A stretch of 64,000 bases of DNA. Source: a virus. Where the stretch lies: the IMG/VR virus record IMGVR_UViG_3300031485_000046; one strand, given 5' to 3'. The notes under the pieces are model-generated. The model was not told the origin of the DNA. It saw nothing but the letters and a program-made list of their open reading frames with translations, and did not search any database. The position numbers and the translations under genes are program-made. How positions within the stretch are numbered: the stretch's first letter is position 1; each line of letters begins with the position of its first letter. Below, one piece after another: positions 56,263 through 58,080 of this stretch.

Positions 56263-58080
56263 TTATTTGAAATGGTAATCTCCCTTCTCATTCCAAGAAC
56301 AATCAACAGGACACACTTCTGCTTCTACTTCCAAGGGTACATTTATCCAGCTCCAGTGCTTAGGTAAATCTTCACAAGTAATCCTATGAACAGTAGACGC
56401 AACCATATCTAATTCGTCAGGATGCACATCCAACACCATTGCGTCATGTATCTGTCCGATCAATCTGGATTTCCAGTTCTGTTCTCTGGATATCTTGTCA
56501 ACCTGAATGAACGACCATAACAGACAATGAAATGCACTTCCCTGAATAGGAATATTTATGCATTCATTCCTACGCATGATACCAGAACATCTGAATCCTG
56601 TGTACATGCTCACATACCCGTTTTTTTGATACCCTTCCCACCACTTGTCTTTCCAACGATTATACACTTTGAATCGCCTATTCCAAAAATCATCTTCAAT
56701 TTTCTTGATATGGTCCGTAAACTTATCGAAGGAATCTAGCTTGTTTGCAATCAAGTGGTCGGAAATATGACCTCCGTCATGCTCAATGCCTTCACCTTTC
56801 TTCCATTTGCCTTTAGATAATCCGCACCATTTACAAGCAATATTTTCGGCGCAGTTTACATAATAGTCACCATAGAACTGCGGAAATACAAATCCGTTCT
56901 TTGCCGCTTGCCTCATCATTTTATGCGATGGTATACTCTTGTCTAACTTATCAAGTACAAATATCTGACAAGCCATATCACCGTGCATATCCGATGAAGG
57001 ATCTTCAATGTACTTTCTCATAACAGGGTCATGATGGTAACACTCGCTGATTCTTACTTCCACTCCTGAATAGTCTATTTCAAGTAGCTGGTGACCTGGC
57101 TTAGGAAATATCGCTTTGCGAGTAATCTCCATAGCCTCTTTATCTCGCTTGGGAATATTTTGGAAGTTTATCCGCTCCGATGAATTATGTACGCATATTT
57201 GGTTCACGATAAAATTATGATATTTTTCCACTTCAATATCGTACACATCTACCGGCTCATCAAGGTACTCTATTGTGTGGTCTGTATGATTAGACAATAC
57301 CTTATTAGAAAGACGTGTATCTGATAACGCCCTCGCTTGCACGTATGTTCCATCTATTAGACGGATTTTGTGCTCAGGTGTCACATCTAAGTATCCTTTC
57401 CCACCTCCACCGTTTATAGAGTAATGGATTCGCACAACTTTCTTATGTCCTGTTTTGCCAGCCCATATAACTTTTTGAATAGAAGGGCGGAGTTTATCGT
57501 CAAAACAATACACATAATCACCCTTCTTTACATTTTCAATAGGGGTCCCTTCTGGTTGTGCTTCAAAATCTTTCATTACCAATACTTTAGATCCTTTAGC
57601 TACACAAGAGCGAAATGTCTTTACTGTATGCAAATTAAAGAAAGGATGCAAGTATCCGCCTACTTGTTCTCTTATGAAAGCATCCAGATACGTATCTCGC
57701 ACCTTTTTCAATTTGCGCATTTCCAAAATCCACTTTATCTCAGGAATATCAATCTGGGAAAGTGCTTCATCGTCTGTTGCACCCTTGCCAGATGGTGTCA
57801 ACTTTGCAGGGGTGATTTTCCTAACATTGTACAAAAGGTGTGCTAACTGCCAATTAGAATCAGGGTTAGCCTTAGCACCATACACCTTCGTCCAATGCAT
57901 ATAGAATTTAGTATCCCTGAGTTTTCTATCCAATCGTGCTATTTTTTTGTCAAGGTACTCTTTTTTCTTTAAGCAGTAATCAACATCAATCCGCATTCCT
58001 TCTTGTTCTGCCCTCGCAAAAGCAAGGATGCCATCTTGCAATAGCTGATATGCTTCAGGAAGATTAGGTGTCAGTTGCAT
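56263..58080 (-). CDS. polA: family A DNA polymerase, polymerase-domain subunit (intein-containing)
   Basis: Motif A 'LLEIDYSGVEVR', motif B 'RQAAKNGFVFPQFYG', motif C 'QIHDAMVLD'; SD AAGGAGGG 8 nt before ATG 58080 (track start 58107). Confidence 0.85.
   Translation of the reverse strand: MQLTPNLPEAYQLLQDGILAFARAEQEGMRIDVDYCLKKKEYLDKKIARLDRKLRDTKFYMHWTKVYGAKANPDSNWQLAHLLYNVRKITPAKLTPSGKGATDDEALSQIDIPEIKWILEMRKLKKVRDTYLDAFIREQVGGYLHPFFNLHTVKTFRSCVAKGSKVLVMKDFEAQPEGTPIENVKKGDYVYCFDDKLRPSIQKVIWAGKTGHKKVVRIHYSINGGGGKGYLDVTPEHKIRLIDGTYVQARALSDTRLSNKVLSNHTDHTIEYLDEPVDVYDIEVEKYHNFIVNQICVHNSSERINFQNIPKRDKEAMEITRKAIFPKPGHQLLEIDYSGVEVRISECYHHDPVMRKYIEDPSSDMHGDMACQIFVLDKLDKSIPSHKMMRQAAKNGFVFPQFYGDYYVNCAENIACKWCGLSKGKWKKGEGIEHDGGHISDHLIANKLDSFDKFTDHIKKIEDDFWNRRFKVYNRWKDKWWEGYQKNGYVSMYTGFRCSGIMRRNECINIPIQGSAFHCLLWSFIQVDKISREQNWKSRLIGQIHDAMVLDVHPDELDMVASTVHRITCEDLPKHWSWINVPLEVEAEVCPVDCSWNEKGDYHFK
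57184..57606 (-). other. mini-intein (141 aa, Hint domain only) in the 'TxRxSS' motif of the polymerase
   Basis: Residues C168..N308 of track ORF: block A 'CVAKGSKVLV', block B 'TPEH', block F 'VYDIEVEKYHNFIVN', block G 'CVHN' followed by Ser; flanks join to 'TFRS|SSERINFQNIP' like Pol I '[15 protein letters not shown]'. Confidence 0.8.

What the first reader, a model, noticed from the sequence alone, without database searches (positions are those of the whole stretch)
57184..57606. Mini-intein interrupting the conserved TxRxSS motif of the DNA polymerase
Residues 168..308 of the polymerase ORF begin with Cys, contain a TxxH block ('TPEH'), a block-F-like 'VYDIEVEKYHNFIVN' and end with 'VHN' followed by Ser. 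Removing them rejoins the flanks to 'TFRS-SSERINFQNIP', which matches the Pol I '[14 protein letters not shown]' segment upstream of motif A. At 141 aa with no LAGLIDADG/HNH endonuclease block, this is a Hint-only mini-intein, so the polymerase is active only after protein splicing.
Basis: seen in the sequence. Interest (0 to 1): 0.7.

Follow-up and report, generated by a model that had tools for sequence, protein, structure and literature searches.

The report
Mini-intein in a phage DNA polymerase
A 141-residue self-splicing protein element (a mini-intein that has lost its homing endonuclease) sits inside a conserved active-site motif of this uncultured phage's DNA polymerase; it is real and cleanly delimited, but it is an ordinary example of a well-known kind of selfish element.

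Summary
Window 57184..57606 (minus strand) encodes residues 168-308 of the family A polymerase ORF 56263..58107: 141 aa from Cys1 to His-Asn, followed by Ser.

- **Intein features.** The segment matches the intein models of Pfam and NCBIfam. Its predicted structure is a HINT fold (pLDDT 88.6; all 47 PDB matches with E<=0.001 are inteins or other HINT domains). The residues C1, T76/H79, D123, H140/N141 and Ser+1 are invariant in 28 homologous inteins.
- **Empty site.** A 96.6-98% identical phage contig (L007) lacks precisely these 423 nt and reads TFRS|SSERINFQNIP.
- **Origin.** Other close relatives carry a 356-366 aa intein with an HNH endonuclease at the same site. Intermediate sizes (151-313 aa) also occur, so this element is an HNH-deletion derivative.
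- **Position.** It lies one residue after the Arg668 equivalent of E. coli Pol I.
- **Selection and mobility.** dN/dS is about 0.1. Intein and extein histories disagree. Synonymous differences cluster within 15 nt of the junction, a typical homing or co-conversion footprint.

Splicing itself is inferred, not shown. HNH inteins in phage replication genes are known, and a related intein sits in the polymerase of Rhodobacter phage RcKickapoo. This is a new member of a known kind, of modest interest.

The parts
56263..58107 (-). Family A DNA polymerase (polymerase domain) precursor ORF. It is 614 aa from the first ATG. The likely true start is the ATG at 58080 (Met10), giving a 605-aa precursor and a 464-aa spliced product.
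   Evidence: Pfam DNA_pol_A scores 131 bits and PHROG 17 gives E = 9.6e-53. Homologues start at MQLTPN. AGGAGG lies upstream of the ATG at 58080.
57607..58080 (-). N-extein coding region, ending ...HTVKTFRS (Ser167 is the -1 residue).
57184..57606 (-). Class 1 mini-intein: 141 aa, from Cys1 to Asn141.
   Evidence: Intein model matches. Exact 423-nt indel relative to L007, L008 and L002. AF2 model with pLDDT 88.6. HINT fold matches in the PDB.
57577..57606 (-). Block A (CVAKGSKVLV). Cys1 is the first nucleophile.
   Evidence: C1, A3 and G5 are invariant in 28 homologous inteins.
57370..57381 (-). Block B, TPEH (Thr76 and His79).
   Evidence: T76 and H79 are invariant.
57277..57342 (-). Linker that carries the scar of the deleted HNH endonuclease domain. 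The main junction is between Ser105 and Asn106 (nt 57292|57291). Sister inteins have about 218 more codons here.
   Evidence: Protein and DNA alignments to P0001/L001. HNH_3 lies at the corresponding place in P0001, P0020 and P0027. This is the lowest-confidence stretch of the model, with 10-residue block means of 75 and 62.
57202..57249 (-). Block F (DVYDIEVEKYHNFIVN), with Asp123 and His130.
   Evidence: V121, Y122, D123, N131 and F132 are invariant and H130 is nearly so. TIGR01443 covers ORF residues 287-309.
57184..57198 (-). Block G (ICVHN): penultimate His140 and terminal Asn141.
   Evidence: H140 and N141 are invariant.
57181..57183 (-). The +1 Ser codon (TCA) of the C-extein, the second nucleophile.
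   Evidence: The +1 Ser codon is TCN in 11 of 11 intein-bearing alleles and in 28 of 66 empty alleles.
56263..57183 (-). C-extein coding region (SSERINFQNIP...), with motif A DYSGVEVR and motif C QIHDAM, up to the stop codon.
58071..59342 (-). Partner ORF encoding a UDG-like domain plus a 3'-5' exonuclease domain. Its stop overlaps the polymerase start (ATGCAACTGA).
   Evidence: Pfam UDG 51 bits and DNA_pol_A_exo1 48 bits; sequence. The same two-ORF layout is seen in L001 and L003.

Best explanation
Window 57184..57606 (minus strand) encodes a canonical class 1 mini-intein inserted in frame in the polymerase-domain gene of a tailed phage's family A DNA polymerase. It lies between the equivalents of Leu669 and Ser670 of E. 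coli Pol I, one residue after the conserved Arg668.

The inferred mechanism is standard four-step protein splicing after translation. (1) Cys1 attacks the Ser167-Cys168 peptide bond (N-S acyl shift), helped by block B Thr76 and His79. (2) The hydroxyl of Ser+1 takes over the N-extein by trans-esterification. (3) Asn141 cyclises, helped by His140 and the block F residues Asp123 and His130, and releases the intein. (4) An O-N shift gives a normal Ser-Ser peptide bond. This restores the contiguous TFRSSSERINFQNIP motif in a 464-aa polymerase.

The element descends from a roughly 360-aa intein whose HNH homing endonuclease was lost by in-frame deletion. It can no longer cut empty alleles itself. 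It persists because imprecise loss would destroy an essential enzyme.

What is shown: the insertion, the fold, the conserved residues, the deletion origin and the purifying selection. What is inferred: splicing activity and the inactivity of the unspliced precursor.
For: - **Intein model matches.** Pfam Intein_splicing scores 36.4 bits (cut-off 35.8). NCBIfam intein_Cterm scores 29.9 bits (cut-off 15.6). phmmer finds PDB inteins 6rpp and 9hth and the bacterial intein-like domain 2lwy.
- **Fold.** The AlphaFold2 model has pLDDT 88.6 and pTM 0.82. All 47 Foldseek PDB hits with E<=0.001 are inteins or HINT domains, for example Npu DnaE at TM 0.74.
- **Exact insertion.** Intein-free homologues P0007 (99% aa identity), P0008, P0009 and P0011 read TFRS|SSERINFQNIP. 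Contig L007 is 96.6-98% nt identical over 7.4 kb and lacks exactly 423 nt.
- **Position.** The Klenow alignment places the site one residue after R668.
- **Deletion origin.** P0001, P0005 and P0006 carry 358-359 aa inteins with Pfam HNH_3 at the same site. Intermediate sizes of 151, 153, 155, 168, 183, 250 and 313 aa also exist. The DNA alignment shows the deletion.
- **Conserved residues.** C1, T76, H79, D123, H140 and N141 are invariant in 28 inteins; the residue after N141 is Ser in all 27 homologues and in the window.
- **Purifying selection.** Intein dN/dS is 0.09-0.10.
- **No hidden endonuclease.** The antisense ORF 57424..57846 has no Pfam match. A profile that includes the HNH columns finds nothing else in the window.
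Against: - Splicing has not been observed.
- The Pfam score is only just above threshold on the whole ORF and just below it (35.5 bits) on the isolated segment.
- The 28 inteins compared are all relatives (38-89% identity), so the invariance of catalytic residues is weaker evidence than it would be across a deep family.
- Loss of the endonuclease domain can reduce splicing efficiency in some inteins (general knowledge of the field).
Confidence: 0.92

Rival explanations
1. The intein is splicing-competent but acts as a conditional switch. Splicing, and hence polymerase activity, would be gated by redox state or another cue, for example through Cys1 pairing with the invariant Cys34 or with Cys138. 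The element would then be regulatory rather than purely selfish.
For: Cys34 is invariant in 28 homologous inteins, and a Cys precedes His-Asn (ICVHN) in most of them. The intein sits in an essential motif, so any delay in splicing would control replication. Conditional splicing is described for other inteins, for example RadA (PMC4513877, listed).
Against: Most relatives do without the intein: 66 of 79 IMG/VR loci, including 96-99% identical phages. It is therefore not needed for regulation. The pattern of empty, HNH-bearing and degraded alleles is the signature of a selfish homing cycle. No distance between the cysteines was measured.
Confidence: 0.08
2. The intein is degenerate and no longer splices. 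The 141 residues would be tolerated as a permanent insertion, and the precursor would be the working polymerase.
For: The endonuclease has already been lost, so the element is in the decay phase of the homing cycle.
Against: All catalytic residues are intact and invariant. dN/dS is about 0.1, as expected for a maintained activity. The insertion splits the TxRxSS motif one residue from the Arg668 equivalent. That residue contacts the primer terminus in Pol I (established knowledge of the enzyme), so an unspliced 16-kDa domain there should be disruptive.
Confidence: 0.04
3. The segment is a native accessory domain of this polymerase lineage, or a bacterial intein-like (BIL) domain, and not an intein.
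For: One PDB sequence hit (2lwy) and several fold hits (6y75, 6tmm) are BIL domains.
Against: It is absent from near-identical polymerases. It has the Ser+1 nucleophile and the His-Asn end. It sits in a highly conserved site of an essential enzyme. BIL domains typically lie in variable regions of non-essential proteins and lack the +1 nucleophile (general knowledge of the family). The best fold matches are true inteins.
Confidence: 0.01

Closest known systems
Class 1 mini-inteins of replication proteins (e.g. Ssp/Npu DnaB, Npu DnaE, Mtu RecA splicing domain, Spl DnaX)
   Same: Same HINT fold (Foldseek TM 0.65-0.74) and a similar size (137-150 aa). It has Cys1, block B TxxH, blocks F and G with His-Asn and a +1 nucleophile, and it lies in a conserved catalytic motif of a replication enzyme.
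   Different: Sequence identity is only 13-25%. The host protein is a phage family A polymerase. The +1 residue is Ser. The Mtu RecA splicing domain and Ssp DnaB mini-intein structures matched are of laboratory-shortened inteins (general knowledge), whereas here the mini form arose naturally by loss of an HNH domain, not a LAGLIDADG domain.
HNH-endonuclease intein at the same site in sister phage polymerases (P0001, P0005, P0006; 356-366 aa)
   Same: Same insertion point (TFRS|C...HN|SS). The splicing blocks are homologous, at 79% aa identity to P0001 over the shared part. The exteins are 92-96% nt identical to L001.
   Different: Those inteins keep about 218 extra codons that include Pfam HNH_3. 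The window element has lost them and is presumably unable to home on its own.
Unannotated HNH intein in the DNA polymerase of Rhodobacter phage RcKickapoo (OP009274, gene 74)
   Same: The intein N-terminal half is related (36% identity, E = 2e-8). It contains an HNH motif and lies in the same TGR-S-S motif of a UDG-exo-PolA polymerase.
   Different: It is inserted one codon further downstream (TGRSA|C...HN|SDNPN). It is full length with the endonuclease. The polymerase there is a single 1248-aa protein rather than two ORFs. The polymerases are only about 27% identical.
HNH_3-containing intein of cyanophage vB_AphaS-CL131 dCTP deaminase (PMC6293099)
   Same: It is a phage intein with an in-frame HNH_3 endonuclease in a nucleotide-metabolism gene, and it was shown experimentally to self-excise in E. 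coli. It is a precedent for the parent type of the window element.
   Different: The host protein is different, and it retains its endonuclease. No sequence comparison was made here.

Membership tests
Intein (HINT superfamily, class 1) | In-frame insertion in a conserved site of a host protein, absent from orthologues | tested here: met
   It is an exact 141-aa (423-nt) indel relative to P0007, P0008, P0009, P0011, L007, L008 and L002. 66 of 79 IMG/VR homologues have the empty site.
Intein (HINT superfamily, class 1) | Nucleophile (Cys/Ser) at intein position 1 and block B TxxH | tested here: met
   Cys1 and T76-P-E-H79 are present and invariant in 28 homologues.
Intein (HINT superfamily, class 1) | Blocks F and G: F-block Asp/His, C-terminal His-Asn, and Cys/Ser/Thr at +1 | tested here: met
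   VYD123IEVEKYH130NF ... VH140N141|S. TIGR01443 scores 29.9 bits against a cut-off of 15.6.
Intein (HINT superfamily, class 1) | Curated profile match above threshold (Pfam PF14890 Intein_splicing) | tested here: met
   36.4 bits against a cut-off of 35.8 on the whole ORF. This is marginal: the isolated segment scores 35.5 bits.
Intein (HINT superfamily, class 1) | HINT fold | tested here: met
   AF2 model with pLDDT 88.6. All 47 PDB hits at E<=0.001 are inteins, BIL or Hedgehog HINT domains.
Intein (HINT superfamily, class 1) | Autocatalytic protein splicing (excision plus extein ligation) | not testable with these tools
   This needs expression with SDS-PAGE or mass spectrometry. It is supported only indirectly, by intact catalytic residues and dN/dS of about 0.1.
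Mini-intein (no homing endonuclease) | No endonuclease domain in frame, and none hidden out of frame or on the antisense strand | tested here: met
   At 141 aa it has no HNH or LAGLIDADG match. The antisense ORF 57424..57846 has no Pfam match. A profile that includes the HNH columns of sister inteins finds only the polymerase ORF in the six-frame translation of the window.
Class 3 intein (WCT motif) | No position-1 nucleophile requirement; Trp in block B, Cys at F:4 and Thr at G:5 | tested here: not met
   Cys1 is present, F:4 is Asp123 and the residue before His-Asn is Val. It is therefore class 1, not class 3.
Bacterial intein-like (BIL) domain | Lies in variable regions of non-conserved proteins, usually without a +1 nucleophile, and cleaves rather than splices | tested here: not met
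   It lies in the conserved TxRxSS motif of an essential polymerase, with Ser+1.
Family A DNA polymerase (host protein) | Pol I-type palm and fingers motifs: TxRxSS...NxQNIP, motif A DYSxxExR and motif C HDE | tested here: met
   Pfam DNA_pol_A scores 131 bits. The alignment to Klenow covers TGRLSS, NLQNIP, DYSQIELR and QVHDE.

The most novel reading that the evidence does not exclude
The endonuclease-less mini-intein may still be mobile. The same 141-aa allele, with the same HNH-deletion scar, occurs in polymerase genes whose synonymous sites are saturated with change. The intein itself is much less diverged, and its scar segment is 90-97% nt identical. Mini-inteins might therefore spread between co-infecting phages by using double-strand breaks made in trans by the HNH endonuclease of full-length sister inteins at the same site, as a parasite of a parasite. 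On this reading, the sharp cluster of synonymous changes at the junction in empty alleles records an arms race between the homing site and the endonuclease.
Probability: 0.25. Interest if true: 0.5.

Novelty: new member of a known kind. Interest (0 to 1): 0.3.

Why it matters
**Annotation.** The polymerase of this phage lineage should be described as a 464-aa spliced product. Length differences among its relatives (about 464, 605-645 and 815-835 aa) reflect intein status, not different enzymes.

**Evolution.** This clade shows all stages of the intein homing cycle at one site: empty, HNH-bearing, partly deleted and minimal. In places the genomes concerned are over 95% identical. That makes it a convenient natural system for studying intein gain, decay and co-conversion in uncultured phages.

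**Use as a tool.** A naturally minimal 141-aa Cys1/Ser+1 intein could be a candidate protein-engineering tool if it splices efficiently.

None of this changes current understanding of inteins.

Tried and rejected
- **Other inteins in the window.** I built a profile from 28 homologous inteins, HNH columns included, and searched all six-frame ORFs of at least 40 aa. Only the polymerase ORF matched. Pfam scans of 20 large ORFs found no further intein.
- **Hidden endonuclease.** The antisense ORF 57424..57846 has no Pfam match, so I rejected an out-of-frame or antisense endonuclease.
- **Frameshift fusion.** I considered a programmed frameshift joining the exonuclease and polymerase ORFs. The overlap ATGCAACTGA with an upstream AGGAGG looks like ordinary translational coupling, and I saw no slippery heptamer on reading it. 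The idea was rejected but not pursued further.
- **Host.** The scan of GTDB genomes returned only a 2.8-kb contig binned into a Methanolobus MAG, which is too short to trust. The host remains unknown.
- **Cultured relatives.** The best polymerase match among 50,697 deposited phage genomes is 27.5% identical.
- **Literature.** A search for the phrase 'PolA intein' gave nothing. A search on SETP3 inteins gave no useful text. Novikova et al. (PMC4760082) mention inteins in bacterial DNA polymerase I without giving a site.
- **Class 3 intein and BIL domain.** Both were rejected on defining residues.
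Full report
**1. The observation**

The polymerase ORF lies on the minus strand at 56263..58107 and is 614 aa from the first ATG. Residue 168 is Cys (nt 57606-57604), residue 308 is Asn (57186-57184) and residue 309 is Ser. The finding's coordinates therefore delimit exactly 141 codons, CVAKGSKV...NQICVHN.

- TPEH at intein residues 76-79
- VDVYDIEVEKYHNFIVN at residues 119-135
- VHN at the C-terminus, followed by Ser

Joining the flanks gives ...LHTVKTFRS-SSERINFQNIPKRDKE.... phmmer aligns this column by column with Klenow fragment ...[25 protein letters not shown]..., and motif A follows (DYSGVEVRI against DYSQIELRI). 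Counting along chain 1d9d_A, and taking from my own knowledge that the Klenow chain starts at Pol I residue 324, the conserved Arg is R668. The intein then lies between the equivalents of L669 and S670.

Homologues begin at MQLTPN, which is Met10 at nt 58080. An AGGAGG precedes that ATG. The precursor is therefore probably 605 aa and the spliced product 464 aa.

**2. Is it an intein?**

*Profile and sequence searches*
- Pfam Intein_splicing scores 36.4 bits on the whole ORF (cut-off 35.8) and 35.5 bits on the isolated segment. PT-HINT and Hint_2 are weaker secondary hits.
- NCBIfam TIGR01443 (intein C-terminal splicing region) scores 29.9 bits against a cut-off of 15.6.
- phmmer against PDB sequences finds the PhoCDC21-1 intein (6rpp, E = 6.5e-5), a bacterial intein-like domain (2lwy), the Aes123 PolB1 intein (9hth) and several DnaE, DnaX and DnaB inteins.

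*Structure*
- The AlphaFold2 model, built on an alignment of 28 sequences, has mean pLDDT 88.6 and pTM 0.82.
- Foldseek against the PDB returns 47 matches at E<=0.001. All are inteins or other HINT domains: Mtu RecA, Npu DnaE (TM 0.74), Ssp and Npu DnaB, Prp8, gp41-1, and BIL and Hedgehog domains.

*Catalytic residues*
- C1, T76, H79, D123, H140 and N141 are invariant in the 28 homologous inteins; the following residue is Ser in all 27 homologues and in the window.
- Cys1 together with Asp at F:4 makes this a class 1 intein, not class 3.

**3. Is it an insertion?**

Yes, and the proof is unusually clean. The search for homologous proteins returned 1,911 relatives at E<=1e-10. They fall into three groups:
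- *Intein-free.* P0007 (464 aa, 99% identical), P0008, P0009 and P0011 read TFRS|SSERINFQNIP without interruption.
- *Mini-intein.* P0002 and P0003 (605 aa) and the partial P0034 carry the same 141-aa element.
- *Full-length intein.* P0001 (823 aa, exteins 92-96% nt identical), P0005 and P0006 carry a 358-359 aa intein at the same point. Its middle part matches Pfam HNH_3.

At the DNA level, IMG/VR contig L007 is 96.6-98.0% identical to the window over 7.4 kb and lacks exactly 423 nt. L008 and L002 show the same gap.

Among 79 classifiable IMG/VR loci, 66 are empty and 11 carry an intein at this site (5 of 141-183 aa, 6 of 357-366 aa). Two further loci (L060, L064) were scored as 58-residue insertions, but that comes from a false anchor of the pattern match; they look intein-free. 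Intein lengths at this site in the homologues are 141, 151, 153, 155, 168, 183, 250, 313 and 356-366 aa. This points to repeated, independent erosion of the endonuclease domain.

In the window allele the main deletion junction lies between Ser105 and Asn106 (nt 57292|57291), with two small extra deletions upstream. This linker is also the least confident part of the model, with block pLDDT of 75 and 62.

**4. No hidden endonuclease**

A recent preprint warns that apparent mini-inteins in phages can hide out-of-frame or antisense endonuclease ORFs (10.1101/2025.01.02.630785). I checked both possibilities:
- The only sizeable overlapping ORF, the antisense 57424..57846, has no Pfam match.
- A profile of the 28 inteins that includes the HNH columns hits nothing but the polymerase ORF in the six-frame translation of the window.

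**5. Selection and history**

*Purifying selection.* Nei-Gojobori estimates give intein dN/dS of 0.098 against the mini-intein of L003 and 0.089 against the shared parts of L001. These are similar to the exteins, at 0.06-0.07. Purifying selection on a protein with no role other than removing itself is what is expected of a splicing-competent intein in an essential gene.

*Discordant histories* (all):

| Comparison | Extein | Intein |
|---|---|---|
| Window vs L001 | dS 0.23 | dS 1.47 |
| Window vs L003 | saturated (pS 0.785) | dS 0.68 |

The segment around the deletion scar (codons 81-120) is 90-97% nt identical between the window and L003. Codons 1-40 of the window differ from L001, L003 and L085, which resemble each other. 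The intein is therefore mosaic, and it has moved or been converted between polymerase lineages even without its own endonuclease.

*Footprint at the junction.* Compared with the empty allele of L007, 11 of the 30 nt within 15 nt of the junction differ, and all the differences are synonymous:
- window: AAG ACA TTT CGC TCT | TCA TCG GAG CGG
- L007: AAA ACT TTT AGA TCC | AGT TCT GAA AGG

Only 1 of 270 nt differs at distances of 16-150 nt.

The +1 Ser codon is TCN in all 11 intein-bearing alleles but in only 28 of 66 empty ones. Fisher's exact test gives p = 4e-4, although the alleles are not phylogenetically independent. This is the classic footprint either of co-conversion of flanking sequence during homing or of endonuclease-resistant empty sites. 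The data do not distinguish the two.

**6. Mechanism**

The best explanation is standard class 1 protein splicing:
1. An N-S acyl shift at Cys1, assisted by Thr76 and His79.
2. Trans-esterification to Ser+1.
3. Cyclisation of Asn141, assisted by His140, Asp123 and His130.
4. An O-N shift, giving a Ser-Ser peptide bond.

The insertion splits the TxRxSS motif one residue after the Arg668 equivalent. In E. coli Pol I this arginine contacts the minor groove at the primer terminus (established knowledge, not tested here). The unspliced precursor is therefore expected to be inactive. Both splicing and precursor inactivity are inferences.

**7. Context**

The window is a siphovirus-like tailed phage. 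The annotated genes are:

| Gene | Coordinates |
|---|---|
| Terminase | 12871..14466 |
| Portal | 21848..23308 |
| Capsid-like | 25405..26535 |
| Tape measure | 33186..35819 |
| Tail tip | 37055..40525 |
| SbcD-like | 49020..49922 |
| SbcC-like | 49919..50971 |
| RecA | 51339..52403 |
| SSB-like | 52782..54056 |
| Clamp loader (by orthology with the L001-L003 genes) | 54942..55856 |
| Sliding clamp (weak match) | 59347..60354 |
| TGT/DpdA-like | 60957..61928 |
| QueF-fold | 61931..62374 |
| QueC | 62349..63188 |

The last three form a 7-deazaguanine module. No deposited phage has a polymerase more than about 28% identical, and the host is unknown.

**8. Comparison with what is known**

- Inteins cluster in replication proteins, and some occur in bacterial DNA polymerase I (PMC4760082).
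- In-frame HNH inteins are a recognised, mostly phage-borne minority type (10.1101/2025.01.02.630785).
- One such intein, in the cyanophage CL131 dCTP deaminase, has been shown to self-excise (PMC6293099).
- Among deposited genomes, Rhodobacter phage RcKickapoo gene 74 is annotated only as 'DNA polymerase'. It carries a related HNH intein in the same motif, one codon further downstream (TGRSA|CFVAG...CVHN|SDNPN).

The window element is thus a new, undescribed member of a well-known kind.

**9. Verdict**

Novelty is 'new member of a known kind', and interest is modest at 0.3. The most interesting by-product is the population picture: every stage of the homing cycle occurs at one site, there is a sharp synonymous footprint at the junction, and an endonuclease-less intein has nevertheless been exchanged between lineages.

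Noticed in passing
window 58071..58107 (overlap of ORFs 58071..59342 and 56263..58107, minus strand): The family A polymerase is encoded as two ORFs, one for a UDG-like plus 3'-5' exonuclease protein and one for the polymerase domain. The polymerase start overlaps the exonuclease stop (ATGCAACTGA), and an AGGAGG lies upstream. The layout is conserved in L001 and L003. In Rhodobacter phage RcKickapoo the same domains form a single 1248-aa protein.
   Followed up: partly
window 60957..63188, minus strand: A 7-deazaguanine (queuosine-precursor) module sits next to the replication genes: QueC (62349..63188, Pfam 189 bits), a QueF / GTP-cyclohydrolase-fold protein (61931..62374) and a queuine tRNA-ribosyltransferase / DpdA-like protein (60957..61928). 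This suggests that the phage modifies its DNA with a 7-deazaguanine base.
   Followed up: partly
window 57169..57183 and 57607..57621, compared with L007:3486-3516: Against a 97-98% identical intein-free relative, 11 of the 30 nt flanking the insertion point differ, all synonymously. Only 1 of 270 nt differs in the next 135 nt on each side. The +1 Ser codon is TCN in 11 of 11 intein-bearing alleles and in 28 of 66 empty ones. This is a footprint of co-conversion or of endonuclease resistance.
   Followed up: partly
window 57184..57606, compared with L001:6475-7551, L003:6475-6897 and L085: The mini-intein is a recombinational mosaic. The scar region (codons 81-120) is 90-97% nt identical to L003, although the exteins are only about 78% identical. 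Codons 1-40 are only 72-78% identical to L001 and L003 and carry most of the mismatches against L085, whereas L001 and L003 are 95-97% identical to each other there (L085 has the same variant). An intein without an endonuclease has evidently been exchanged between lineages.
   Followed up: partly
L004:875-4618 (Rhodobacter phage RcKickapoo OP009274, gene 74): The gene is annotated only as 'DNA polymerase', but it contains an HNH-bearing intein (CFVAGTQV...GVCVHN|S) in the same TGR-S-S motif, one codon downstream of the window's site. The record does not annotate an intein.
   Followed up: partly
Dulem virus 38, PP511596.1 40270..40551 (hit H19): A 'polymerase/primase' gene of this virus has a segment 33% identical to the N-terminal two-thirds of the mini-intein (E = 3e-10). 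This suggests a related intein in a different replication gene.
   Followed up: no
whole window; L085 (JAVEPM010000261.1): The phage lineage is abundant in metagenomes (1,911 polymerase relatives at E<=1e-10) but has no cultured relative: the best deposited phage polymerase is 27.5% identical. A 2.8-kb contig, 94.5% identical to window 57025..59845 and carrying the same mini-intein, is binned into a Methanolobus MAG. That placement is probably a binning artefact.
   Followed up: partly
window 6542..8569 (minus strand): A 675-aa SNF2-family helicase has an N-terminal DUF6011 domain. The neighbouring ORF 1683..3173 matches PHROG families annotated as replication initiation O-like and DnaD-like helicase loader. 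These lie apart from the main replication module at 49-63 kb.
   Followed up: no
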